In this document: piece after piece, positions 1 to 20,546 of the stretch
How positions within the stretch are numbered: position 1 is the stretch's first letter
Layout: each line of letters starts with the position of its first letter
Assembly: GCA_030591905.1 (NCBI GenBank)
Contig: JAUVAE010000001.1
Coordinates: 1-35,321, forward strand
Length of the DNA stretch: 35,321 nucleotides
Source: Candidatus Komeilibacteria bacterium
GTDB lineage: Bacteria > Patescibacteriota > Patescibacteriia > UBA1558 > S5-K13
Direction: 5' to 3'
The notes under the pieces: model-generated
Told to the model about the DNA's origin: nothing
Databases searched by the model: none
The model's input: only the letters and a program-made list of their open reading frames with translations
Position numbers and translations under genes: made by a program

Positions 1-295
1 AAAAATATTTATCCCGTTAGATGATTTTTCGAAGGAATTTAATGGGACAAAATTAAAAATTATATCATATAAAATAAATGAAAAAATTAATAAATAAATA
101 TTTAATGGGATGAAAAAAACATGCTATCAATGTGAAAACTATGACTGGACAAAACAAAAAATAAAAAATAGAACTACTATTGTTAGAAACCATAGAAAAG
201 AAAAGAAAAATGTCTTAGATTATGTCAGATCTTTGCTATTTTAATTTGATTTATTGTTAGTTTTAGTGTTAAATAAACTAATTAGTAGTAATAAA

Positions 296-440
296 CCCCT
301 CCCTCAATCCCTCCCCTAGTCAGGAGAGGGAAGACGGGGATAAAGACTGATTTAGAAGTAATTTTATAAAAATTAATAGAACTTTGTAAAATTGTCTTTC
401 TCCTGACTAGGAGAGAGATGTCCAAAGGACAGAGAGAGGT
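296..440. repeat. GC-rich hairpin doublet, copy A (divergent left half)
   Basis: Hairpin 308-331 has arms TCCCTCCCC/GGAGAGGGA and loop TAGTCA. An AT-rich spacer follows. Hairpin 395-418 has arms TCTTTCTCC/GGAGAGAGA and loop TGACTA. Mini-hairpin TGTCC-AAA-GGACA lies at 419-431, and the end motif GAGAGAGGT at 432-440 ends 9 nt before the ileS ATG. The right half is nearly identical to copy B at 3528-3573. Confidence 0.85.
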
Positions 441-449
441 TAAAATAAT

Positions 450-3400
450 ATGAATGAAAATTTAAAAAATAAAAAATCAGATCTGTTTAAAAAAGAACAG
501 GAAATTTTGAAATTTTGGAAAGATAATCAAATTTTTGAAAAATCATTAAAAAAAGATAGTCCTCAAGGCGAATATTCTTTTTATGATGGACCTCCTTTTG
601 CTACTGGATTACCTCATTATGGACATATTGTAGCTTCTTTATTGAAAGATGTTTTTCCTAGATATAAAACAATGCAAGGATATTCTGTTAGAAGAAAATG
701 GGGTTGGGATTGTCACGGTTTACCAGTGGAAAGTTTAGTTGAAAAAGATTTAAAAATTAAATCTAAAGACGAAATTGAAGATAGAGTTGGAGTTGATAAA
801 TTTAATGAATCTTGCCAAACCTATGTCATGAAATATGCTGATGAATGGCAGAAATTTATCCCCATGATTGGTAGATGGGTTGATATGGAAGATGATTATA
901 AAACTATGGATCCAGAGTATATGGAATCTATTTGGTGGGTTTTTAAATCATTATGGGAAAAGGGATTAATATATGAAGGTTATAAATCAATGCATATTTG
1001 TCCTCATTGTGAAACAACATTATCTAATTTTGAAGTAGGATTAGAATATAAAGATATTAAAGATTTATCAATAACTGCTAAATTTGAATTAATTAACCCT
1101 GTCGGAAATAACGATTCTAAAGAATCTAATTCCAACAGGACAAGTGAACCAAAAACTTTTGTTTTAGCTTGGACAACTACTCCTTGGACTTTGCCAGGAA
1201 ATGTAGCTTTAGCTGTTGGTAAAAGTATAGACTATGTAAAAGTAGAATTAGATGGAAAAAAGTATATTTTAGCTAAAGAATTAGTAGAAACAGTTTTAGC
1301 TGACAAAAAATATACAATAGTAGAGGAGCTTAAAGGCAAAGATTTAGTTGGTAAAGCTTATCAGCCGTTATTTGATTATTATTCTAGTAATAAAGAATTA
1401 GAAAACATAGAAAATGGCTGGAAAATATATGCTGCTGATTTCGTAACTATTGAAGATGGTACTGGTATTGTATATATTGCTCCGGCTTTTGGTGAAGACG
1501 ATATGAATTTAGCTAAAGAAAACAAATTGCCTTTTGTACAGCACGTTTTTTTAAATGGTAAATTCACAGAAGAAATGCAAGATTTTGCTGGTATGGAAGT
1601 AAAGCCCAAAGAAGATATAAACAAAACTGATATAGAAATTATTAAGTATCTAGCTGCTAAAGATTTGCTTTTTGCTAAAGAAAAATATGAACATTCTTAT
1701 CCACATTGCTGGCGTTGTGATGCTCCTTTATTGAATTATGCTACTAAATCTTGGTTTGTAAAAGTTACTGATATTAAAGATAAAATAATCGCTAATAATA
1801 AGAAAGTGAATTGGGTTCCAGCTAGTTTTAAAGAAGGTCGAATGGGTAAATGGTTAGAAGGTGCTCGGGATTGGTCGATTTCTAGACAAAGATATTGGGG
1901 TTCAGTATTACCTATTTGGAAATGTGATTGTGGTGAAATTAAAGTAATTGGTTCTATAGCAGAATTGGAAAAGCTTTCTGGAAAAAAGGTGGAAGATTTA
2001 CATAAACATACGGTGGATAAAATTACTATTAAATGTGAAAAATGTGATAATGAAATGAAAAGAATACCAGACGTTTTAGATTGTTGGTTTGAATCTGGTG
2101 CTATGCCTTATGCCTCAGTTCATTATCCATTTGACCCCAGTAGTTTATCCTCACAAAGTTCGGATAACCACGGGGCAAGAAATAAAAAATTGAAAGTTTC
2201 TTTACCTAAAAACTTTCCTGCTAATTTTATTGCTGAGGGTCAGGATCAAACTAGAGGCTGGTTTTATACTTTATTAGTATTATCTACGGCTTTATTTGAT
2301 AAACCAGCATTTTTAAATGTAGTAGTAAATGGTATGGCCTTAGCTGAAGATGGTAAGAAGATGTCTAAGAGACTAAGAAACTATCCTGATCCTACGGAAA
2401 TGATTCATAAATTTTCAGCAGATACTTTAAGGTATTATTTACTTTCTTCTCCTATTGTTAAAGCTGGCGATTTATGTTTCTCAGAAAAAGATTTATCAAG
2501 TATTTATTATAGATATATTTCAACTTTAATGAATGTAGTTTCTTTTTATAAAATGTATGCTAAAGAGGATGATGTTAACTTCGTAGAACCAGAACATTTA
2601 TTGGATAAATGGATTTTAGCTAAATTAAAAGAGTTAAAGAAAAATATTACTGATAATTTAAATAAATATGAAGTAAAGAAGTCCGTGGATCCAATTGGGG
2701 AGTTTATTTTAGAATTATCAACTTGGTATCTAAGACGTTCTCGGGATAGATTTAAGTCTCATGATGAGTCAGGAACTAAGACTCTACATTATGTTATTTT
2801 AGAATTTAGTAAGTTAATTGCTCCTTTTATGCCATTTTTAGCAGAGGATCTATATAAAGAAATGACCCATTCGGCAAGCTCAGGGCAGGCAGGCAAAGAA
2901 GAGTCGGTTCATTTAGTTACTTGGCCAGAAATAGAGAAATTAACTAAGGAAGAACTTAGTTTATTAGAGGACATGGAGACTGCTCGTAAGGTTGTAGAAA
3001 AATCTCATAATTTGAGAGATCAAGCTGGTATGAAAGTCAGACAACCATTAGATTCTATAAATTATAATTTTAATAAAAAATCTTTGAACATAAAATTTGA
3101 ACAAGTTATTGCTGAGGAAGTTAATGTAAAAACAGTAGAATTTTCAAAAAAAGTAGCAGATCAGGAAGTTGATTTAGATATTAAGCTTACTCCAGAATTA
3201 AAGAACGAAGGCAATTTAAGAGAACTTGTTAGACAAATTAATTCGCTTCGTAAAAAAGCTAATTTAACCATTAACGATAGGGTAAAAGTATATTTTCAAA
3301 GTAAAGATTTAGCTGATTTAATATTAGAAAATAAAGAGTTTTTACAGAAAAATGTATTAGCTGATGATATTATTAATGATCAGGTTGATAAGAGCTTAAT

Positions 3401-3458
3401 AACTAAAGAAGTAGAAATTAACAAATTTAAAGTTAAGATTAGTTTAGTTAGCATTTAA
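450..3458 (+). CDS. ileS: Isoleucine--tRNA ligase, eukaryote-like (type 2) form
   Basis: 1002-aa ORF. It carries 'YDGPPFATGLPHYGH' (the HIGH signature in the form I associate with type-2/eukaryote-like IleRS), the 'KMSKRL' KMSKS loop, and 'WTTTPWTLPGN', 'DWSISRQRYWG' and 'AEGQDQTRGWFYTL'. Confidence 0.95.
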   Translation: MNENLKNKKSDLFKKEQEILKFWKDNQIFEKSLKKDSPQGEYSFYDGPPFATGLPHYGHIVASLLKDVFPRYKTMQGYSVRRKWGWDCHGLPVESLVEKDLKIKSKDEIEDRVGVDKFNESCQTYVMKYADEWQKFIPMIGRWVDMEDDYKTMDPEYMESIWWVFKSLWEKGLIYEGYKSMHICPHCETTLSNFEVGLEYKDIKDLSITAKFELINPVGNNDSKESNSNRTSEPKTFVLAWTTTPWTLPGNVALAVGKSIDYVKVELDGKKYILAKELVETVLADKKYTIVEELKGKDLVGKAYQPLFDYYSSNKELENIENGWKIYAADFVTIEDGTGIVYIAPAFGEDDMNLAKENKLPFVQHVFLNGKFTEEMQDFAGMEVKPKEDINKTDIEIIKYLAAKDLLFAKEKYEHSYPHCWRCDAPLLNYATKSWFVKVTDIKDKIIANNKKVNWVPASFKEGRMGKWLEGARDWSISRQRYWGSVLPIWKCDCGEIKVIGSIAELEKLSGKKVEDLHKHTVDKITIKCEKCDNEMKRIPDVLDCWFESGAMPYASVHYPFDPSSLSSQSSDNHGARNKKLKVSLPKNFPANFIAEGQDQTRGWFYTLLVLSTALFDKPAFLNVVVNGMALAEDGKKMSKRLRNYPDPTEMIHKFSADTLRYYLLSSPIVKAGDLCFSEKDLSSIYYRYISTLMNVVSFYKMYAKEDDVNFVEPEHLLDKWILAKLKELKKNITDNLNKYEVKKSVDPIGEFILELSTWYLRRSRDRFKSHDESGTKTLHYVILEFSKLIAPFMPFLAEDLYKEMTHSASSGQAGKEESVHLVTWPEIEKLTKEELSLLEDMETARKVVEKSHNLRDQAGMKVRQPLDSINYNFNKKSLNIKFEQVIAEEVNVKTVEFSKKVADQEVDLDIKLTPELKNEGNLRELVRQINSLRKKANLTINDRVKVYFQSKDLADLILENKEFLQKNVLADDIINDQVDKSLITKEVEINKFKVKISLVSI
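1098..1139. repeat. Imperfect 42-nt hairpin inside the ileS reading frame
   Basis: Outer arms CCTGTCGGA (1098-1106) and TCCAACAGG (1131-1139) pair at 8 of 9 positions. Inner arms GATTC (1113-1117) and GAATC (1122-1126) enclose loop TAAA. The segment encodes the low-complexity stretch PVGNNDSKESNSNRT. Confidence 0.4.
2135..2175. repeat. GC-ended imperfect hairpin inside the ileS reading frame (TTGACCCC-type left end)
   Basis: CCCC (2135-2138) pairs with GGGG (2172-2175), and TTATCC (2145-2150) with GGATAA (2162-2167), around an 11-nt loop. The left end TTTGACCCC resembles the ATTGACCCC ends at 7641 and 8513. The segment encodes DPSSLSSQSSDNHGA. Confidence 0.4.
2865..2894. repeat. In-frame GC-rich island in ileS containing a fragment of the intergenic repeat family
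   Basis: GCTCAGGGCAGGCAGG (2878-2893) matches GCTCGGGACAGGCAGG in repeat copy C (6404-6419) at 14 of 16 positions. It also matches the reverse complement of CCTGCCTGTCCC in copy D (12207-12218). It encodes ...HSASSGQAGKE... Confidence 0.6.
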
Positions 3459-3460
3459 CT

Positions 3461-3573
3461 ACCTCTATCCCTGTCTCCCTTTCTCCTAGTCAAGAGAAAG
3501 GGACTATATGCTTATTTAGTTTTTTTGTCCCTCTCCTGACTAGGAGAGGGATGTCCAAAGGACAGGGAGAGGT
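3461..3573. repeat. GC-rich hairpin doublet, copy B (archetype; REPIN/BIME-like)
   Basis: Terminal inverted repeat: ACCTCT(AT)CCCTGTC at 3461-3475 pairs with GACAGGGAGAGGT at 3561-3573. Hairpin 3476-3503 has a 10-bp stem and a loop containing TAGTCA. The spacer at 3504-3527 contains CTATATGCTTATTTAG. Hairpin 3528-3551 is a perfect 9-bp stem (TCCCTCTCC/GGAGAGGGA) with loop TGACTA. Mini-hairpin TGTCC-AAA-GGACA lies at 3552-3564. Confidence 0.9.
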
Positions 3574-3585
3574 TGAATCTAATTT

Positions 3586-4227
3586 ATGGAATATATAACT
3601 CATGGCATAATTCTTAGTTCTAGAGATTTTAAAGATGCAGATAGATTGTATTCTATTTTAACTTTAGAAAATGGTTTAATAAATGCTACAGCAAAGTCAG
3701 TAAAAAAATCAGAGAGTAAATTATCTGGTTTTTTAATACCTTCTAATCAGGTTGTTTTAATGTTGGCTAATGGGAAATCAACAATAAGTAGAATTGCTCA
3801 AGTTAAAGTTTTAAAAACTCATTCTCATATCATAAAAGATCATGAGATTTTTTTATTATTTAGTCAGATTGTAGAGATTTTATTGAATTCAGTTAAAGAA
3901 AATTTAGCAGAAAAAGATATTTATAACACTACATTATTATTTTTAAACGATTTGAATGATGAAAAATTGAGTATAGAAAAAAAGAAAACTATTCAGTTAA
4001 TATATTTTTCCGAACTTTTAAAATTTTTAGGATTTAGACCTAAAAAAATTGATATTAAAACGGATTTATTGTGTAAATTATTGGAACTTATGTTTAAGAA
4101 TGACTATTCAAAAAATCGTGATTTAATGCTAAAATTAAAGGTAAGATTAGGCGATTTTTCTATTTTAAGAGAATGGTTTATAGATTATTTTCAGAATATT
4201 TTGGAGAAAAAAATAAATAGTTTTTAA
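3586..4227 (+). CDS. recO: DNA repair protein RecO
   Basis: 213 aa. The N-terminal OB-fold pattern is typical of RecO (GIILSSRDFKDADRLYSILTLENGLINATAKSVKKSESKLSGFL). Size and helical C-terminal half also fit. Confidence 0.7.
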   Translation: MEYITHGIILSSRDFKDADRLYSILTLENGLINATAKSVKKSESKLSGFLIPSNQVVLMLANGKSTISRIAQVKVLKTHSHIIKDHEIFLLFSQIVEILLNSVKENLAEKDIYNTTLLFLNDLNDEKLSIEKKKTIQLIYFSELLKFLGFRPKKIDIKTDLLCKLLELMFKNDYSKNRDLMLKLKVRLGDFSILREWFIDYFQNILEKKINSF

Positions 4228-4239
4228 TAAGGTTTAAAT

Positions 4240-6342
4240 ATGAAAAATACAAAAAATATTTTAGATTTATCTAAAATTAAAAAAACAAAAAAATCAATTT
4301 TTAGTAAACAATTAAAAAATAAATTGGGCCCTAAGCCAAATTTAAGTTTTGGTGTAAATGTAAAAATTGTTAGAGGTGGAAAAAAAAAATCATCTCATAA
4401 TAAAAAATTAAGTGTTGGTATCAGACCAAAATTATTAAGTAAGAAAAAAATAAAAGGCGTTCGATCAAAAGCTTATGATACAGCTAATTCTTCTAAAGAG
4501 ATTGATGATATTTGGAAGAAGAATAAAAATTTAGATAAAGGATTTGATAAGAGGCCATCTACCAAAAAAAAGACTTTACCAATTATTATTATTTTATTAT
4601 TTTTACTTGCTGTTGCTAGTATAGCTGGCTGGTATTTTTTTGGTACTAAAGAACTAACTGGTGAAGGAGTAAGTTTAGAGATCAAAGCAGACGAGAATAT
4701 AGTTTCTGGAAAACAAGTTGAATTATTGATAAAGTATAAAAATAAAGAAAATGTTAAAGTAAAAAATCTTGAATTAAGGATAAATTATCCAGAAGGTTTT
4801 CATTACATTTCTTCTAAACCCTATGCCAATACTTTGTCTTCTAATGTTTGGCAATTAGATGACCTTAAGGCTGGGGAATCTGGAGAGGTGAGATTGGTAG
4901 GACAAATTATTGGAGGACTTGATGAAGAAATCGTTTTAGAGCCAATTTTATCATATGAGCCATCTAATTTTAGCTCGTCATTTGAATCAAAAGTAGTTAA
5001 AGTTTTTAAAATTGATAAGTTATTAATGGATTTTCGAGTAGAAGCGCCAGCAGAAATAGGAAATGATAATAGAGTTACTTATAATATATTTTATAAAAAC
5101 ATATCTGAATTACCGCTGGATAATTTTAGATTAAGAGTGGATTATCCAGATAATTTTACTATTATTGAAACGGGCGGAGACGCTCAATTATTAACAGAGG
5201 ATATTTGGGAGATTGATGAAATAATGAAAGATGAAGAAAATGAAATAATAATAACCGGATTTTTTGATTTAGAGAATATAAGTTCTTCAACAGTAAAGGC
5301 TATTTTAGAGATTAAATCTTCATTATTAGAAATTCCTTTAATTGGTGAGTCTAGTTCTAATTGGTATCCATATTTAACAATTGAGAAAGATATTACTTTG
5401 TCGGAATTGGCAGCTAATTTAAAAGTATCTGTAAATGGAGATAACAAAGATTTGGCAATTGATTGGGGCAGTGAATTAGAATATGTTATTAATTATAAGA
5501 ATACCAGTGATTCAGACTTGGAAAATGTTTCTATTACAGTTATTTTAAATTCTGATTATCTTGATTGGGAAAGTTTGGACGATAATTTTAATGGTTTAAT
5601 TGATGAAGGAAATCATTTTATTACCTGGGACAAGAAAATTATTCCTTCTCTAGCAAAACTTGATGTGGGTCAGGAAGGTAGAATTAGTTTTAAGATCAAA
5701 GTTGTTGATTTTAACGAGGAGATTGTAGAAAGTGATGATTATTTAATTGCTTCAGAGGTGTTTTTAGATTCTGATAGTTTTGAGGTAATAGAAGGAGAAG
5801 AGGAAGAGAATAAATTGATAAATTCTAATATTATTATCAATAAAATAAATAGTCCTGTCGATTTTTTAACTTTAGCCAGATATTATAATGAAGCTGGTGA
5901 AGCTGTCGGTTCAGGGCCATTACCACCATTTGTAGGAGAAACAACGAGTTATCAGATAGTTTGGAGTTTAAAATCTTTAACAGCCGATTTAAAAAATATA
6001 CTTATTAAGACAACATTGCCTCCGGGAGTTGAATGGGCTCAGGGAATTGTTGCTGATGATCAGGATTTGATTTTTAATGATACTACTAGACAAGTAGTCT
6101 GGAAAATAAATAATTTAGAAAAAATGGAGAATAATATAGCTAAATTTAATGTCCTGATAACTCCTGACGTAAGTCAGGTTGGTAAAATAGTAACTTTGAA
6201 TAATACTATAACATTAATAGCAGAAGATACTTATTCTCAGGGAAGAATTAATTTAAATAGTAACTATTTAACTACTGAGTTAGAGGGAGATGAAAAGGCC
6301 GTTGGGAATGAAAAGGTTATTAATTCTATTCTAGGTGAATAG
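4240..6342 (+). CDS. Membrane-anchored surface protein with repeated DUF11/CARDB-like beta-sandwich modules
   Basis: 700 aa. It has a Lys-rich N-terminal tail of about 110 aa and a single TM (LPIIIILLFLLAVASIAGWYFF). At least four modules follow, carrying the recurring signature N-x-x-[LI]-x-[IV]-x-YP-x-x-F (NLELRINYPEGFHYIS, NFRLRVDYPDNFTII, NVSITVILNSDYLDW, NILIKTTLPPGVEW). Confidence 0.6.
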   Translation: MKNTKNILDLSKIKKTKKSIFSKQLKNKLGPKPNLSFGVNVKIVRGGKKKSSHNKKLSVGIRPKLLSKKKIKGVRSKAYDTANSSKEIDDIWKKNKNLDKGFDKRPSTKKKTLPIIIILLFLLAVASIAGWYFFGTKELTGEGVSLEIKADENIVSGKQVELLIKYKNKENVKVKNLELRINYPEGFHYISSKPYANTLSSNVWQLDDLKAGESGEVRLVGQIIGGLDEEIVLEPILSYEPSNFSSSFESKVVKVFKIDKLLMDFRVEAPAEIGNDNRVTYNIFYKNISELPLDNFRLRVDYPDNFTIIETGGDAQLLTEDIWEIDEIMKDEENEIIITGFFDLENISSSTVKAILEIKSSLLEIPLIGESSSNWYPYLTIEKDITLSELAANLKVSVNGDNKDLAIDWGSELEYVINYKNTSDSDLENVSITVILNSDYLDWESLDDNFNGLIDEGNHFITWDKKIIPSLAKLDVGQEGRISFKIKVVDFNEEIVESDDYLIASEVFLDSDSFEVIEGEEEENKLINSNIIINKINSPVDFLTLARYYNEAGEAVGSGPLPPFVGETTSYQIVWSLKSLTADLKNILIKTTLPPGVEWAQGIVADDQDLIFNDTTRQVVWKINNLEKMENNIAKFNVLITPDVSQVGKIVTLNNTITLIAEDTYSQGRINLNSNYLTTELEGDEKAVGNEKVINSILGE

Positions 6343-6356
6343 ATTAGAAATTAATT

Positions 6357-6494
6357 ACCTCTCCCTGTCCTTCGGACATCCCTCTCCTAGTTCCCACGAC
6401 TTCGCTCGGGACAGGCAGGAGAGGGACAAGAGAACTAAACGAGCATATAGTCCCTTTCCTCCTGACTAGGAGAAAGGGAGACAGGGATAGAGGC
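6357..6494. mobile_element. GC-rich hairpin doublet, copy C: MITE-like, inverted relative to copy B, with 9-bp target-site duplication
   Basis: Termini ACCTCTCCCTGTC (6357-6369) and GACAGGGATAGAGGC (6480-6494) are inverted repeats. The element is flanked on both sides by AAATTAATT (6348-6356 and 6495-6503). Spacer 6427-6450 matches the reverse complement of the copy B spacer at 20 of 24 positions. Hairpin 6451-6479 is the reverse complement of B 3476-3503. The hairpin with arms 6379-6387/6418-6426 is the reverse complement of B 3528-3551, but its loop is expanded to 30 nt. Confidence 0.85.
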
Positions 6495-6503
6495 AAATTA
6501 ATT

Positions 6504-12277: not shown

Positions 12278-12292
12278 TAAGAAGTAATTTAT

Positions 12293-12649
12293 ATGTTAAA
12301 CACTAAAGCAGTAATAAAAGCTAGAATATTGAGGAAAAGAATGACTGAGTCAGAGAAAATTCTTTGGCAAGAATTAAAAACTAAGAAATTGGGAGTTAAG
12401 TGTCGTAGACAGATGCCATTTGTTTTTGAAGATTATCATTTTATAGCTGACTTTTATTGTTCAGAAAAGAAATTAATTATAGAAGTAGACGGTAAAGTTC
12501 ATAATGATCAAGAAATAAAAGAATATGATGAATTTAGAGAAGATGTTTTTAAACAAGATGGTTATAAAATTATAAGATTTAAGAATAAAGAAATAATAAA
12601 TAATTTAGAAGAAGTTTTAATAAAAATAAAAAATATTGTAAATCAGTAA
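12293..12649 (+). CDS. DUF559 domain endonuclease (Vsr/PD-(D/E)xK-like fold)
   Basis: 118 aa. The DUF559 pattern is clear: 'ARILRKRMTESEKILWQELKTKKLGVKCRRQMPFVFEDYHFIADFYCSEKKLIIEVDGKVH...YDEFREDVFKQDGYKIIRFKNKEI'. Confidence 0.85.
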   Translation: MLNTKAVIKARILRKRMTESEKILWQELKTKKLGVKCRRQMPFVFEDYHFIADFYCSEKKLIIEVDGKVHNDQEIKEYDEFREDVFKQDGYKIIRFKNKEIINNLEEVLIKIKNIVNQ

Positions 12650-12656
12650 TAGTAAT

Positions 12657-12702
12657 CTTCCCTTTCTCCTGGCTAGGAGAGAGGGATAAGAGGGAGAGAG
12701 GT
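12657..12702. repeat. GC-rich hairpin, copy E (single unit, right-half type)
   Basis: Hairpin 12660-12685 has arms CCCTTTCTCC/GGAGAGAGGG (10 bp, one G-T pair) and loop TGGCTA. The end motif GGGAGAGAGGT at 12692-12702 is the same terminal motif as in copies A and B. Confidence 0.8.
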
Positions 12703-12733
12703 TAGTTAAATGGGCTAATCAAAAGTTCAAAAT

Positions 12734-12783
12734 CTTATTATTCTTACTTCTTGCTTCTTAATTCTTAATTCGTGATTCATATC
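12734..12783. repeat. Right arm of the ACGAATTA-type inverted repeat enclosing the DUF559 cassette
   Basis: CTTATTATTCTTACTTCTTGCTTCTTAATTCTTAATTCGTGATTCATATC is complementary (imperfectly) to 11978-12013. Confidence 0.6.
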
Positions 12784-12788
12784 TTGTT

Positions 12789-12817
12789 TTGGGAAAGCCT
12801 TATTTTTATGCTAAAAT
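12789..12817 (+). promoter_or_regulatory. Candidate extended -10 promoter for the acyl-CoA ligase operon
   Basis: TTGGGA (12789-12794) is followed by a 17-nt spacer ending in TGc, then TAAAAT (12812-12817). The gene starts at 12837. Confidence 0.4.
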
Positions 12818-12836
12818 TAAGTATATAGTTTAAATT

Positions 12837-14621
12837 ATGTGCTTTTTTATTATGGAAAATAATAAAACAATATATGGTCGTTTTCAAAAAGTAGCTTTAG
12901 AAAATAAGGAGAATACAGCCTTAGCCTATATTCATGATGGGAATTACCAGAAAATAAATTATCAAGAATTGAATAATTTTGTATTACAAATTGTTAATTA
13001 TTTTTTAAGTTTAGGATTGGAAAAAGGTGATAGAGTAGCTATTTTAAGTGAAAATAGGTGGGAATGGCCAGTAATAGATCTAGCTAGTAATTATTTAGGT
13101 TTAATTTTAGTACCACTTCATACTACTTATGGTCGTAAATATATTGATTATATTATTGAGAAGACAAGTCCTAAAGTGATTTTTATTTCCAATCAAGAGT
13201 TATTTGAAAATTTTAAAGTTATTAATAATAATTTAATTGATAAATTTCAAAGTATAGTTCTTTTGGACAATGATATAGAAAGTGATTTGAAATTAAAATA
13301 TTGGTCAAATATTATTAGTGATTTTGATTATAATATTAATACAGAGCCGGTGTTTGATTCTGAAGCTATAGTAACTATAATCTACACTTCGGGAACTACT
13401 GGGATGCCAAAAGGAGCTATTTTAACTAATAAAAATATTTTAGTTAATGCTGATAATGTTTTGCAATATGTACCTGTATATTCTAGTGATAGATTTTTTT
13501 CTTTTTTACCATTATCACATATTTTAGAAAGAATGGCTGGTAATATAGTCCCTTTAATATTAGGTGCTTCAATATATTATAGCCGTAGTCCAAAAACTTT
13601 AGTAGATGATATTAAAAAAGCTCAGCCAACTATTATGGTTTCGGTTCCGAGGATTTTTGAAAAAATATTTGACAAAATTCATGATAAATTAAGAGAAGGT
13701 TCAAAGTTTAAACATCATCTTTTTTATCATGCTTTAAAAGTAATTAGTAAGATTAATGCTTTTAAAAGAAATAATAAAAAATGTGGTAAATTAATTTATT
13801 GGCAATTTAAAGTTTTAGATAATCTTGTTTTTAAGAAGATTAGAAGTGTTTTTGGAGGTCGTTTAAGACTAACAATTTCTGGAGGTTCAAGTTTAGATAA
13901 AAAAATAGCTAGATTTTTTGAAGATGTTGGAATTAAAATAATAGAAGGTTATGGTTTAACAGAAACTTCACCAATTATTGCTGTAAATAAGATGAATGAT
14001 TATAAATTTGGTACAGTTGGGTCAGTTTTAGCGAACTTAGATTTAAAAATTAATAATGATAAAGAAATTTTAGTAAAAGGTGAATCAATAATGAGTGCTT
14101 ATTGGCAAGACGATGAAGCAACTAAGAGGGTTATTCAAGATGGATGGTTTTCTACTGGAGATTTGGGTTTTATGGATAATGATGGTTTTTTAAATATTAT
14201 TGGTCGTAAGAAAGAAATGATAGTTTTATCAACAGGTAAAAATATTGTTCCAGTAAATATTGAATTAGCATTAAATTACGATCGATTTGTCACGCAGTCA
14301 ATGATTATTGGATTAAATCAAAAATTTATTACAGCTTTAATTGTTCCTGACTTTGAAGAATTAGAAATATATTGTCAGCAGAATGATATTAAATATAGTA
14401 AAGATAAAGATTGTTTAGGTAATGAAAAAATACATAAATTATACCAAAATCGTATTAATAGAGCCTTGAAAGGTTTTGCTGATTATGAGCAGATTGCAAA
14501 TTTTTATTTAGTACCTAGGGAATTCGATCAAGAACATGATGAGCTGACCCCTACTTTGAAATTGAAAAGAGAGAATATTAAAACAAATTTTTTGAATATA
14601 ATTAATAAATTTTATCAATGA
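12837..14621 (+). CDS. Long-chain fatty acid--CoA ligase (AMP-dependent synthetase family)
   Basis: 594 aa. It has the AMP-binding signature 'IIYTSGTTGMPKGAILTNKN', plus 'GYGLTETSP', 'WFSTGDLG' and 'LKLKRENI'. The real start may be the second Met at 12852. Confidence 0.85.
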   Translation: MCFFIMENNKTIYGRFQKVALENKENTALAYIHDGNYQKINYQELNNFVLQIVNYFLSLGLEKGDRVAILSENRWEWPVIDLASNYLGLILVPLHTTYGRKYIDYIIEKTSPKVIFISNQELFENFKVINNNLIDKFQSIVLLDNDIESDLKLKYWSNIISDFDYNINTEPVFDSEAIVTIIYTSGTTGMPKGAILTNKNILVNADNVLQYVPVYSSDRFFSFLPLSHILERMAGNIVPLILGASIYYSRSPKTLVDDIKKAQPTIMVSVPRIFEKIFDKIHDKLREGSKFKHHLFYHALKVISKINAFKRNNKKCGKLIYWQFKVLDNLVFKKIRSVFGGRLRLTISGGSSLDKKIARFFEDVGIKIIEGYGLTETSPIIAVNKMNDYKFGTVGSVLANLDLKINNDKEILVKGESIMSAYWQDDEATKRVIQDGWFSTGDLGFMDNDGFLNIIGRKKEMIVLSTGKNIVPVNIELALNYDRFVTQSMIIGLNQKFITALIVPDFEELEIYCQQNDIKYSKDKDCLGNEKIHKLYQNRINRALKGFADYEQIANFYLVPREFDQEHDELTPTLKLKRENIKTNFLNIINKFYQ

Positions 14622-18669: not shown

Positions 18670-18783
18670 TAATTAGGTATTAGTCATTAGAGATTAGAAG
18701 GATGCAGAATGCAAATTAAGAATTATGAAAATACAAAAAAGATATTTAAAATTTATTTGAAATTTAAAATTAGAAATTAAGAA

Positions 18784-19263
18784 TTGATTAATATGTATAT
18801 TATTCATGAACAAAGGCAAAAATCTAATCCTATTATTACATCAATATATATTATTACTTTTATAGTTTTATTATTAGTTATTATTAATCCTAGTTTTTTA
18901 AAATTACCAGATTTACCAAAAGTTTCTAGAATTGTTTTAATAGTAGTTTTATTAGTGGATATAGTTTTTTTTAGAAGTCTTTATGAATTAAAATTTAGAG
19001 TTACTAGTGAAGGTTTAGAATTTGGCTATGGACTTTTTAAAAATAAAGTTGTCAAAGAAAACATTGGGTCAGTTTTAATAGATAGTTCTAAAGGTAATTT
19101 TTTTGGATATGGTATAAGGTTTGGTAAAGATAAAACAATAGGATTTATTGCTAGATCTGGTAGTGGTTTGAGAATAATTTTTAAAGATCAAAGAAGATTT
19201 TTTGTTACTATGAATAATCCCGAAGAAGCTCTAAATATTATTAAGCAAAATAATTATGTATAA
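18784..19263 (+). CDS. Hypothetical small membrane protein
   Basis: 159 aa with two N-terminal hydrophobic helices and a soluble C-terminal domain of about 90 aa. It overlaps the pgk start by 8 nt. I recognise no family. Confidence 0.4.
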   Translation: MINMYIIHEQRQKSNPIITSIYIITFIVLLLVIINPSFLKLPDLPKVSRIVLIVVLLVDIVFFRSLYELKFRVTSEGLEFGYGLFKNKVVKENIGSVLIDSSKGNFFGYGIRFGKDKTIGFIARSGSGLRIIFKDQRRFFVTMNNPEEALNIIKQNNYV

Positions 19264-20449: not shown

Positions 20450-20546
20450 TAATTAAAATCTAAATGATAAATTCTAATATATTTGTATTTTGATATTTGA
20501 AATTTATTTGGGATTTGATATTTAGAATTTGGGATTTAACAATATT

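What the first reader, a model, noticed from the sequence alone, without database searches (positions are those of the whole stretch)
296..12702. REPIN/BIME-like GC-rich hairpin doublets: nine hairpin units at five loci, all in the first 12.7 kb of an AT-rich genome
The hairpin consensus TCCCTYTCTCC-TGACTA-GGAGARAGGGA (9-11 bp stem, 6-nt loop) occurs at 308-331, 395-418, 3476-3503, 3528-3551, 6379-6426, 6451-6479, 12148-12171, 12249-12270 and 12660-12685.

At loci A-D two units sit in opposite orientation (loop TAGTCA versus TGACTA). In copies B, C and D they are separated by a spacer with a conserved core (AACGAGCATATAG or its complement). A third mini-hairpin (TGTCC-AAA-GGACA) and 13-15 nt terminal inverted repeats (ACCTCTCCCTGTC) complete the unit.

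Copy B (113 bp) and copy C (138 bp) are reverse complements of each other. This architecture, two inverted palindromic units that together form a larger hairpin, matches that described for REP doublets/REPINs and BIMEs in proteobacteria. No RAYT/IS200-like gene is present here, and the host looks CPR-like.

I saw no copies by eye in the remaining 22.6 kb.
Basis: partly seen in the sequence, partly recalled or inferred. Interest (0 to 1): 0.72.

Follow-up and report, generated by a model that had tools for sequence, protein, structure and literature searches.

The report
Hairpin repeats bracketing a DUF559 endonuclease
The GC-rich hairpin doublets are real insertions, but they are the ends and gene-less remnants of a small mobile cassette whose only gene is a DUF559 (Vsr-like) endonuclease sitting among them, and they belong to the BoxC/PIT "triplex motif" repeat family of E. 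coli, whose means of spread has not been identified.

Summary
All nine hairpin units exist at the stated coordinates. Seven pass a strict three-block scan, against none in shuffled sequence, and no unit lies beyond 12.7 kb.

The units are not REPs. Each is a pyrimidine block, a complementary purine block and a mirror purine block. That is the architecture published as BoxC / PIT / TM intrastrand-triplex motifs (Holder 2015).

It lies between locus D and locus E, bracketed by inverted units.
- Locus A is the same cassette with its ORF deleted; it keeps the leader and about 45 nt of the ORF tail.
- B and C are minimal two-end derivatives of 113-137 bp.

A syntenic relative (IleRS 82% identical) lacks every one of these inserts. 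DUF559 homologues 64-89% identical carry the same ends in other gene neighbourhoods.

In 80 DUF559 loci from many phyla, GC-rich hairpins flank the gene about 6-fold more often than expected, with the mirror block facing outward. In E. coli K-12, TMECO no. 9 lies 168 nt downstream of ycjD, the DUF559 gene.

Best reading: a cassette of endonuclease plus structured ends, with MITE-like derivatives. It resembles REPIN-RAYT but uses a different enzyme. That the nuclease acts on the ends is inferred, not shown.

The parts
296..333 (-). Locus A, left-end unit. On the minus strand it reads TCCCTCTCC-TGACTA-GGGGAGGGA-TTG-AGGGAGGG (three blocks).
   Evidence: Matches the upstream module of the DUF559 genes in L098 and L100 and window 12133-12173 at 88% (family D12).
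334..393 (+). Locus A interior: remnant of the DUF559 leader (GGGATAAAG) joined to the last ~45 nt of a DUF559 ORF (349-393, GATTTAGAAGTAATTTTATAAAAATTAATAG...). The ORF itself is deleted.
   Evidence: By-eye comparison with the L098/L100/window gene ends (...AATTTAGAAAAAGTTTTAATAAAAATAAAAAAAG...).
394..441 (+). Locus A, right-end unit with mini-hairpin: CTTTCTCC-TGACTA-GGAGAGAG-(TGTCCAAAGGACA)-GAGAGAGG. It ends 9 nt before the IleRS ATG (450).
   Evidence: (family D1). Same module as immediately downstream of DUF559 in L098, L100 and L094.
3461..3573 (-). Locus B: 113-bp two-end derivative. It consists of a unit without mini-hairpin (3461-3503), a spacer (3504-3526) and a unit with mini-hairpin (3527-3573). 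It is inverted relative to the intact cassette and lies between the IleRS stop and the RecO ATG (3586).
   Evidence: Absent in L012, where the genes abut. Near-identical doublets occur in 4 other contexts (L095, L096, L097, L102).
6357..6493 (+). Locus C: 137-bp two-end derivative in the same orientation as the intact cassette. It consists of a unit with mini-hairpin (6357-6427) carrying a 25-nt insertion in its loop (6391-6415), a spacer with core AACGAGCATATAG (6428-6450), and a unit without mini-hairpin (6451-6493). It ends 11 nt before the TGT ATG (6504).
   Evidence: (I1, I2, I5). Absent in L012, where the two genes overlap.
12133..12210 (+). Locus D, first part: a further derivative. It consists of a left-end unit (12133-12173), a spacer with AACGAGCATATAG (12174-12197), and the left half only of a hairpin (12198-12210), broken after CTCCTG.
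   Evidence: The junction CTCCTG|CCTGTCCC is the same as at the loop insertion of locus C.
12226..12281 (-). Left end of the intact cassette. On the minus strand it reads TCTCCTCC-TGACTA-GGGGGAGA-(TGTCGCGAAAGCGACA)-GAGGGGG. It is followed by the leader AAGTAATTTAT and the ATG.
   Evidence: The same module lies upstream of the 89%-identical gene in L001.
12293..12649 (+). DUF559 endonuclease gene (118 aa). It has a Vsr-like PD-(D/E)xK fold and an intact E64-x-D66-x3-H70 motif.
   Evidence: Pfam PF04480 E 1.1e-28. Invariant residues. PDB 3HRL E 3e-30 and 3R3P (I-Bth0305I) E 5.5e-6. dN/dS 0.14-0.23.
12657..12703 (+). Locus E = right end of the intact cassette: TCCCTTTCTCC-TGGCTA-GGAGAGAGGGA-TAAGA-GGGAGAGAGG.
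   Evidence: The same module lies downstream of the gene in L001.
11966..12791 (.). Whole block absent from the syntenic relative. It contains the D derivative, the intact cassette and ~230 nt of AT-rich flanks that carry an outer inverted repeat (11991-12013 and 12757-12780).
   Evidence: Alignment to L012; coordinates.

Best explanation
**What it is.** The hairpins are the structured ends of a small mobile cassette and of its gene-less derivatives. Each unit is a pyrimidine block, a complementary purine block (together the hairpin) and, on the outer side, a second purine block that mirrors the first. This is the BoxC/PIT/TM 'intrastrand triplex motif' architecture.

**How the copies relate.**
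- Two such units in inverted orientation, mirror blocks outward, bracket a 118-aa DUF559 (Vsr-like) endonuclease gene at 12226-12703. One of the two units carries an extra mini-hairpin.
- Locus A is a copy of a sister subfamily that has lost its ORF.
- Loci B and C are minimal left-end plus right-end derivatives (MITE-like), in opposite orientations.
- D-left is another derivative, broken in a hairpin loop where the intact copy adjoins it.

**Proposed mechanism (inferred).** The DUF559 nuclease recognises the folded or sequence-specific ends, in cis and in trans, and breaks DNA at or near them. Host recombination or repair then copies the cassette, or any DNA carrying two ends, into AT-rich spacers. 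In this compact genome those spacers lie just upstream of start codons, where the outer GAGAGG block may serve as a ribosome-binding site.

**Shown:** the insertions, the end-gene-end architecture, its recurrence across genomes and phyla, purifying selection on the ORF, and conservation of the three-block structure by covariation.

**Inferred:** that DUF559 acts on the ends, and how copying occurs.
For: **Insertion**
- The syntenic contig L012 (IleRS 82% identical) lacks A, B, C and the whole D-gene-E block. IleRS/RecO abut there and the DUF11-like gene and TGT overlap.

**Same gene, same ends, other places**
- L001 (89% identical protein) lies between two DUF2341 giant genes.
- L006, L094 and L098 (64-71%) lie after HSP20; L100 (71%) is a fifth linked copy, its contig too short to show the upstream gene.
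- HSP20 sites in three relatives are empty.

**Derivatives**
- A-left matches the upstream module of L098/L100. A-right matches their downstream module. The interior keeps the ORF tail.
- B-type doublets occur in 4 further contexts.

**Structure is conserved**
- 92% of stem cells are paired. 8 of 11 pairs show changes on both sides. 0 of 500 shuffles reach this.
- The third block mirrors the second at 8.47/9, against 6.87 for cross-unit pairings and 5.58 for shuffled tails.

**Cross-phylum (80 DUF559 loci)**
- A GC-rich hairpin lies within 220 nt upstream in 48% and within 170 nt downstream in 45%, against 6-7.5% expected.
- With stricter criteria the figures are 37% and 36% against about 2%.
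- The mirror block is gene-distal in 45-49% and proximal in 16-22%.
- Solo copies nearby resemble that genome's own DUF559 flanks.

**E. coli**
- TMECO no. 9 (1351239-1351204, minus strand) lies 168 nt downstream of ycjD.
- ycjD is present in 3378 of 5426 genomes. ycjD-positive types such as K-12 have about 20 copies of the repeat, whereas B2/ST131-type strains have 1-4 and the one B2 strain checked, BEN2908, lacks ycjD at the fabI locus.

**The gene is functional and nuclease-like**
- dN/dS 0.14-0.23.
- PDB 3HRL and the homing endonuclease 3R3P are hit by sequence.

**Independent hint**
- DUF559 CDSs are 14-fold enriched among genes overlapped by inverted repeats (PMC9881135).
Against: - No biochemical link between DUF559 and these motifs exists in the papers I could search.
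- A 118-aa nuclease cannot by itself carry out strand transfer, so the copying step is undefined.
- No target-site duplication could be defined at any insertion.
- About half of the 80 DUF559 loci show no clear hairpin by my criteria.
- E. coli O157/O55 strains lack ycjD yet keep about 14 repeats. Copy number therefore does not track strictly, and the comparison is confounded by phylogeny. The two searches were matched by proportion and hit position, not genome by genome.
- Holder 2015 found no stable triplex in vivo and no mobility gene near TMECOs.
- Only 35 kb of this genome is available, so genome-wide copy number is unknown.
Confidence: 0.6

Rival explanations
1. DUF559 is a free-standing homing-type endonuclease gene that parasitises pre-existing inverted doublets. 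The repeats spread by another route (replication slippage at structured DNA, or an unknown enzyme). The gene is copied into doublets by break repair, using the two units as homology arms, which would explain why it is always bracketed.
For: - The family is sequence-related to the proven homing endonuclease I-Bth0305I (PMC3239194, PMC2677866).
- The intact copy adjoins a derivative broken inside a hairpin loop (12198-12225). The same junction CTCCTG|CCTGTCCC marks a 25-nt insertion in the loop of C-left, as if loops were cut.
- Doublets have one end of each type, like the cassette. E. coli pairs are always type A plus type B.
Against: - Locus A keeps ORF remnants, so at least some gene-less copies are decayed cassettes, not virgin targets.
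- The empty HSP20 sites in relatives hold no doublet.
- The cassette with both ends occurs inside coding sequences such as LeuRS and MetH, where no doublet target is expected.
- The junction motif was not found in any other fetched locus.
Confidence: 0.2
2. REPIN-type elements: REP doublets mobilised in trans by a RAYT (Y1 HUH transposase) encoded elsewhere in the genome. On this view the neighbouring DUF559 gene is coincidental.
For: - Doublets of inverted palindromic units fold into a long hairpin.
- A relative (L013) carries a Y1_Tnp gene near its IleRS.
- Only 35 kb of the genome is visible.
Against: - No Y1_Tnp in the window.
- L013 has no unit of this family in 13.5 kb, and its Y1_Tnp has a different hairpin.
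- The association with DUF559 recurs in CPR relatives and in 80 loci across phyla.
- The units have a third mirror block that REPs lack.
Confidence: 0.06
3. Host regulatory or structural elements: RNA stabilisers, attenuators or terminators, translation-initiation donors, or an invertible switch around DUF559. They would be kept for their effect on neighbouring genes rather than being mobile DNA.
For: - A, B and C each end 9-13 nt upstream of a start codon with an outer GAGAGG or TAGAGG block.
- T:G outnumbers C:A 13 to 1 in the stems, so one strand folds better.
- The conserved spacer core holds a -10-like TATAGT.
- DUF559 genes are enriched among predicted inversion targets.
Against: - Absent from the same intergenic sites of a close relative, where the genes abut or overlap.
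- They occur in both orientations relative to transcription (B versus C).
- No T-tract; none is called terminator-like.
- E. coli PIT elements showed no promoter or terminator activity (PMC4666352).
- No recombinase is nearby.
Confidence: 0.06
4. Assembly or chimera artefact: GC-rich foreign DNA stitched into an AT-rich contig.
For: Local GC content departs strongly from the 27% background.
Against: - Units are short, precisely intergenic, and bounded by intact syntenic genes.
- The same modules occur in independent assemblies from several samples.
Confidence: 0.01

Closest known systems
BoxC / PIT elements / TM(ECO) intrastrand-triplex motifs (Bachellier 1990s; Hoyne and Maher 2000; Holder et al. 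2015, PMC4666352)
   Same: - Three consecutive blocks: C/T block, complementary purine block, mirror purine block.
- Intergenic, multi-copy, found in either orientation.
- Frequent inverted pairs made of two unit types.
- Linked with local presence/absence variation between relatives.
   Different: - The sequence is not the TMECO pattern CCCTCNCCC...GGGNGAGGG. The blocks are mixed A/G (GGAGAGAGG), in an AT-rich CPR genome.
- In four units the second loop is a 12-16-nt mini-hairpin instead of 1-6 nt.
- The published work reports no associated gene. Here the units bracket a DUF559 gene, and in E. coli TMECO no. 9 sits next to ycjD.
REP / REPIN with RAYT (REP-associated tyrosine transposase)
   Same: Short palindromic units occur as inverted doublets dispersed in intergenic DNA. 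A single small nuclease gene is itself flanked by inverted units. In E. coli, repeat numbers tend to be lower where the gene is absent.
   Different: The enzyme is a Vsr-like PD-(D/E)xK nuclease, not an HUH Y1 transposase. The unit has a third mirror block. REP sequence signatures are absent.
MITEs and their autonomous parents (for example Correia/NEMIS, RUP); Rickettsia palindromic elements for the in-frame cases
   Same: Internal-deletion derivatives keep only the two ends. They show presence/absence polymorphism and fold into hairpins. In other phyla, related units and the whole cassette sit in frame inside genes, as RPEs do.
   Different: The parent encodes no recognisable transposase. No target-site duplication could be defined.
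Vsr-like (EDxHD) homing endonucleases: I-Bth0305I and the 'fractured gene' endonucleases (PMC3239194, PMC2677866)
   Same: Same catalytic fold and motif, related by sequence (3R3P, E 5.5e-6). They are small selfish nuclease genes, and hairpins upstream of the ORF have been described.
   Different: Those reside in group I introns or between split-intein halves of phage genes, and they carry an extra DNA-binding region. This one is chromosomal: only 3 of 50,697 phage records hold a homologue. It consists of the catalytic domain only and carries its own structured ends.
E. coli YcjD and C. crescentus VsrA (DUF559 proteins)
   Same: Same Pfam family. ycjD has a BoxC/TMECO unit downstream on the same strand.
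   Different: VsrA is proposed to be a mismatch-repair nuclease functionally linked to a cytosine methyltransferase (PMC12907096). No methyltransferase is in this window.

Membership tests
BoxC / PIT / TM intrastrand-triplex motif (ITxF criteria, Holder 2015) | Three consecutive blocks: a pyrimidine stem, a complementary purine stem and a mirror purine stem, 6-15 nt long with at most one mismatch. | tested here: met
   7 of 9 units pass with 8-nt blocks and up to 1 mismatch each; 0 in 30 shuffles. Mirror match is 8.47/9, against 6.87 cross-unit and 5.58 shuffled.
BoxC / PIT / TM intrastrand-triplex motif (ITxF criteria, Holder 2015) | Both loops are 1-6 nt. | tested here: inconclusive
   Loop 1 is 6 nt in 8 units and about 30 nt in C-left. 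Loop 2 is 3-8 nt in five units but a 12-16-nt self-pairing mini-hairpin in four.
BoxC / PIT / TM intrastrand-triplex motif (ITxF criteria, Holder 2015) | TMECO sequence pattern CCCTCNCCC-N3-6-GGGNGAGGG-N3-GGGNGAGGG. | tested here: not met
   The window blocks are TCCCTYTCTCC / GGAGARAGGGA / GGGAGAGAGG. The architecture is the same but the sequence subfamily differs.
BoxC / PIT / TM intrastrand-triplex motif (ITxF criteria, Holder 2015) | The isolated strand folds into a triplex. | not testable with these tools
   This needs CD or NMR on oligonucleotides. ViennaRNA models only hairpins.
REP / REPIN-RAYT | A RAYT (Y1_Tnp, PF01797) gene flanked by the repeats. | tested here: not met
   No PF01797 hit in any window ORF. 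The flanked gene is PF04480.
REP / REPIN-RAYT | Inverted doublets that fold into a long imperfect hairpin. | tested here: met
   z -3.8 to -6.7 for A, B and C.
MITE of a TIR transposon | Terminal inverted repeats shared with a longer coding element; presence/absence polymorphism. | tested here: met
MITE of a TIR transposon | Target-site duplication. | tested here: inconclusive
   The flanks are AT-rich (TTAA / TTTA / AATTA). No consistent duplication was seen at 7 insertion sites.
MITE of a TIR transposon | The parent element encodes a transposase. | tested here: not met
   The only ORF is a 118-aa DUF559 nuclease.
Vsr-like / EDxHD homing endonuclease | Catalytic fold and the E-x-D-x3-H motif. 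| tested here: met
   E64, D66 and H70 are invariant. 3R3P E 5.5e-6; 3HRL E 3e-30.
Vsr-like / EDxHD homing endonuclease | Residence in an intron or intein, or a single conserved homing site, plus a separate DNA-binding domain. | tested here: not met
   The copies lie at several different intergenic sites. The Pfam match covers residues 8-115 of 118, so there is no extra domain. Homologues are rare in phages.
Vsr very-short-patch repair endonuclease | Linkage to a cytosine-5 methyltransferase; match to PF03852. | tested here: not met
   No methyltransferase domain in any window ORF. The best family is PF04480, not Vsr.

The most novel reading that the evidence does not exclude
DUF559 proteins (including E. 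coli YcjD) may be the dedicated nucleases that propagate or maintain BoxC/PIT/TM 'triplex' repeats throughout bacteria. This would be a REPIN-RAYT-like partnership built on a Vsr-fold enzyme that recognises a folded hairpin or triplex DNA end.

The end-gene-end cassette can even sit translated-through inside essential genes. In-frame copies were found in LeuRS, MetH and HsdR, and as N-terminal fusions to HisF, HisH and TrpA in Bacteroidota and other phyla.
Probability: 0.35. Interest if true: 0.85.

Novelty: new variant of a known kind. Interest (0 to 1): 0.7.

Why it matters
BoxC/PIT elements have been known in E. coli since the 1990s. The paper I read reports them in hundreds of genomes, but it found no mobility gene near them and could assign them no function (PMC4666352). 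In the papers I could search, DUF559 is a widespread domain that is still largely uncharacterised.

A physical link between the two, seen from CPR bacteria to E. coli K-12, gives each a candidate partner. It also turns two open questions into simple experiments in a model organism: does YcjD bind or cut TMECO DNA, and does deleting or over-expressing it change TMECO-linked instability?

The result would add a third kind of repeat-plus-nuclease system, beside REPIN-RAYT and IS200/IS605-type elements. It also shows that compact CPR genomes carry active small cassettes in their tiny intergenic spacers.

Tried and rejected
- **Rfam.** No match at gathering threshold anywhere in the window.
- **Source contig.** Exact look-up of two window proteins found nothing on record, so genome-wide copy number could not be obtained.
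- **Target-site duplications.** Insertion flanks compared at 7 sites gave no consistent duplication.
- **Vsr-type T:G substrate in the loop.** The loops of this lineage contain CTAGG opposite CCTGG or CCTGA, which in a self-paired strand would mimic the Vsr substrate. I rejected this as a general explanation because loops differ widely in other lineages (TAGATA, TAATTA, TTTA, TGAA).
- **Homing into a pre-existing doublet at the HSP20 site.** The empty sites of three relatives hold unrelated small hairpins, not doublets.
- **Junction motif.** A search for further copies of CTCCTGCCTGTCCC in 103 loci found none.
- **Phage origin.** Only 3 of 50,697 phage records hold a homologue.
- **Intrinsic terminators.** None of the units is called terminator-like.
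- **Literature.** 25 papers mention DUF559 and none describes flanking repeats. The two E. coli motif papers mention neither ycjD nor an endonuclease.
- **Structure prediction.** Not run, because sequence matches to 3HRL and 3R3P already place the fold.

Full report
**1. The observation**

The window has about 27% G+C and nearly all its genes are on the + strand.

The core GGAGARAGGGA with up to one mismatch occurs 7 times against 0.87 expected. The doublets fold far better than shuffles as single strands, z -3.4 to -6.7. B and C are reverse complements of each other.

One detail is wrong. At locus D the two complete units have the same orientation. The inverted partner of the second unit is locus E, on the other side of a gene.

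**2.

ORF 12293-12649 lies exactly between D and E. It is a 118-aa DUF559 protein (PF04480, E 1e-28).

No other window ORF has a transposase, RAYT, recombinase or methyltransferase domain.

A profile of the DUF559 family matches two solved structures: 3HRL (E 3e-30) and the Vsr-like homing endonuclease I-Bth0305I, 3R3P (E 5.5e-6). The E-x-D-x3-H motif is intact. The ORF is under purifying selection, dN/dS 0.14-0.23 against five homologues.

**3. Anatomy of a unit**

When all units are oriented by their loop (TGACTA), each reads as follows:
- a pyrimidine block,
- a 6-nt loop,
- a complementary purine block,
- a second loop, either 3-8 nt or a 12-16-nt mini-hairpin,
- a second purine block that is the mirror image of the first.

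A strict scan for this three-block pattern finds 7 units. All lie within 297-12700. None occurs in shuffles and none in the other 22.6 kb.

The hairpin is kept by compensatory changes across 19 units from the window and related contigs: 92% of cells paired, 8 of 11 pairs with changes on both sides, 0 of 500 shuffles as good.

The third block co-varies with the second: 8.47 of 9 mirror matches, against 6.87 for cross-unit pairings and 5.58 for shuffled tails.

Unpaired positions are T:G 13 times and C:A once. This suggests that the strand with the purine blocks is the more constrained or the one that folds. The units are related by descent, so this is only suggestive.

**4. The five loci are one cassette and its derivatives**

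| Locus | Coordinates | Reading |
|---|---|---|
| Intact copy | 12226-12703 | Left end with mini-hairpin (12226-12281), short leader, DUF559 ORF, right end without mini-hairpin (12657-12703). Mirror blocks face outward. |
| A | 296-441 | Left half is the upstream module of the DUF559 genes in L098/L100. Right half is their downstream module. The interior keeps GGGATAAAG from the leader and about 45 nt of the ORF tail. A sister-subfamily cassette with its ORF deleted. |
| B and C | 3461-3573, 6357-6493 | One end of each type around a 23-nt spacer, in opposite orientations. Minimal two-end derivatives. |
| D-left | 12133-12210 | Another derivative, broken in a hairpin loop after CTCCTG where the sequence CCTGTCCC begins. 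The same junction flanks a 25-nt insertion in the loop of C-left. |

**5. They are insertions**

A 952-kb contig from a relative (L012, IleRS 82% identical) is collinear with window 150-12900. It lacks A, B, C and the whole 826-nt D-gene-E block. There, IleRS and RecO abut and the DUF11-like gene overlaps TGT.

DUF559 proteins 64-89% identical to the window's carry the same end modules in other neighbourhoods:
- L001 lies between two DUF2341 giant genes.
- L006, L094 and L098 lie after HSP20.
- Three relatives have that HSP20 site without the cassette.

An exact-pattern scan of metagenome contigs found 9 loci. Three have the unit right after a DUF559 gene. Six, in four distinct contexts, are B-type doublets of about 115 nt.

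**6. Generality**

I fetched 80 DUF559 loci from GTDB genomes. They span Patescibacteria, Bacteroidota, Chloroflexota, Cyanobacteria, Gammaproteobacteria, Planctomycetota and others.

- A GC-rich hairpin lies within 220 nt upstream in 48% and within 170 nt downstream in 45%. Both are present in 33%. The expectation from the rest of the same loci is 6-7.5%.
- With perfect stems of at least 7 bp the figures are 37% and 36% against about 2%.
- The mirror block is on the gene-distal side in 45-49% and on the proximal side in 16-22%.
- Solo copies nearby resemble the flanks of that genome's own DUF559 gene.
- Many homologues read into the repeat at their C-terminus (...SPPWGI...LSPD).

**7. What the repeat is called**

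A sequence search of the literature led to Holder et al. 2015 (PMC4666352). It identifies hairpin-plus-mirror-purine motifs as BoxC, alias PIT elements, alias TM/TMECO intrastrand-triplex motifs.

According to that paper:
- There are 23 copies in E. coli MG1655, including five inverted pairs that always combine two types.
- TMECO occurs 3610 times in 262 genomes, and G/C-rich motifs are abundant in cyanobacteria.
- The motif forms a stable triplex in vitro but not detectably in vivo.
- Motif-bearing loci show local genomic instability.

The words endonuclease and ycjD do not occur in that paper, nor in a second paper on the same E. coli motif.

Yet TMECO no. 9 of their Table 1 (1351239-1351204, minus strand) lies 168 nt downstream of ycjD. 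ycjD is the DUF559 gene of K-12 and is on the same strand.

The motif next to ycjD has a median of 18 places per E. coli genome. ycjD is present in 3378 of 5426 genomes.

In an evenly spaced sample, genomes whose best match covers nearly the whole query including its flanks, as K-12's ycjD-linked copy does, have 13-29 places. The others have 1-15, with one at 29. B2/ST131-type strains have 1-4 and O55/O157 strains have 14.

This is partial, phylogenetically confounded support for copy number tracking the gene. The two searches were matched by proportion and hit position, not genome by genome.

An independent study lists DUF559 CDSs as 14-fold enriched among genes overlapped by inverted repeats (PMC9881135).

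**8. How it most likely works**

Shown:
- an end-gene-end cassette with ORF-less derivatives,
- insertion polymorphism,
- a conserved three-block structure,
- a selected nuclease ORF.

Inferred: the nuclease recognises the ends, as folded DNA or by sequence, and makes breaks. Host repair or recombination then turns these breaks into new copies of anything bounded by two ends.

A 118-aa nuclease cannot do strand transfer. No target-site duplication was seen. A break-and-repair route (homing-like) is therefore more plausible than classical transposition.

A, B and C each end 9-13 nt before a start codon with an outer GAGAGG or TAGAGG block. In the relative, those genes abut without any such motif. 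The end may supply a ribosome-binding site. Alternatively, the tiny spacers may simply be the only tolerated targets.

The main rival is that DUF559 is a homing-type gene that invades pre-existing doublets. The loop junctions favour it. The ORF remnants in A and the doublet-free empty HSP20 sites argue against it.

**9. Comparison and novelty**

The units are new, sequence-divergent members of the BoxC/PIT/TM kind. The three-block test is met; the TMECO sequence pattern is not.

They work like REPINs in architecture but fail the defining RAYT test. They resemble MITEs but lack a transposase parent and a target-site duplication.

The DUF559 link is not in any paper I could search. Subscription-only literature was not covered.

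I rate this a new variant of a known kind, with interest 0.7. The reason is that it gives a 30-year-old orphan repeat and a major orphan domain a testable connection in E. coli.

Noticed in passing
L039:2649-6263, L090:5050-8565, L070:2680-6876, L067:5038-8781, L017:5857-7104, L024:5953-6924, L078:793-2121: In Bacteroidota and a gammaproteobacterial MAG, the DUF559 domain lies in one open frame with its host gene. In the two copies whose flanks I inspected, in LeuRS (L039, L090), the hairpin flanks lie inside that frame. It sits inside LeuRS (before the editing domain), MetH and HsdR, and as an N-terminal fusion to HisF, HisH and TrpA. L090 has three further solo units inside the same LeuRS frame. 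This resembles an intein-less, translated-through mobile insertion.
   Followed up: partly
window 10880-11363 (gene 10960-11361); also window 8720-9094: A 23S-rRNA-intervening-sequence-protein gene forms its own cassette. It is flanked by 32-36-nt inverted repeats (10876-10911 / 11328-11363) and is precisely absent from the syntenic relative L012. A second gene of this family lies at 8720-9094.
   Followed up: partly
window 9086-9143, 18741-18794, 20474-20545: An AT-rich repeat family built of GGAATTT / GATATTT / GGGATTT heptamer-like units. One copy directly follows the 8720-9094 IVS-protein gene.
   Followed up: no
window 11991-12013 and 12757-12780: An outer inverted repeat (GGATTACGAATTACGAAT versus the reverse complement ATGAATCACGAATTAAGAAT) encloses the whole D-DUF559-E block. 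The DUF559 cassette may therefore sit inside the shell of another small cassette.
   Followed up: no
window ~1098-1145, ~2136-2180 (IleRS) and 7363-7399 (TGT): In-frame insertions of 16, 15 and 7 codons relative to the L012 orthologues. The insertions or the sequence around them fold as hairpins, for example ACCCCGCACC...GGTGCGGGGT in TGT. They belong to a different family of small palindromic inserts within coding sequence.
   Followed up: partly
L094 (about 1500-2000, minus strand): A 46-nt AT-rich palindrome (TTCACCNTGTTAAAT...ATTTAACANGGT) is inserted both in the 3' end of HSP20 and inside the DUF559 ORF of the same contig.
   Followed up: no
L013:1715-2314 and 8542-8997: A relative with 81% identical IleRS carries two GIY-YIG mini-genes and a Y1_Tnp (IS200/RAYT-type) gene upstream of IleRS. 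It has no unit of the hairpin family in 13.5 kb.
   Followed up: partly
window 6423-6451 (+), 3531-3503 (-), 12174-12197: The conserved spacer core GCATATAGT contains a -10-like TATAGT with GGGACA 17 nt upstream. In locus D it points toward the DUF559 gene. The consensus match alone is not significant in this AT-rich DNA.
   Followed up: no
L006:1690-1780: Downstream of the DUF559 gene and its right end there is a remnant of a second DUF559 3' end (AATTTAGATCAAGTTTTAATAAAAATTAAACAG) followed by a second right-end unit. This points to tandem or nested copies.
   Followed up: no
L103:5762-5830 (E. coli K-12, upstream of ycjD): A hairpin CACCTCATTCTGACAA...TTGTCAGAATGAGGTG ends at the annotated GTG start of ycjD. 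It could mask translation initiation, as described for phage homing-endonuclease genes.
   Followed up: no
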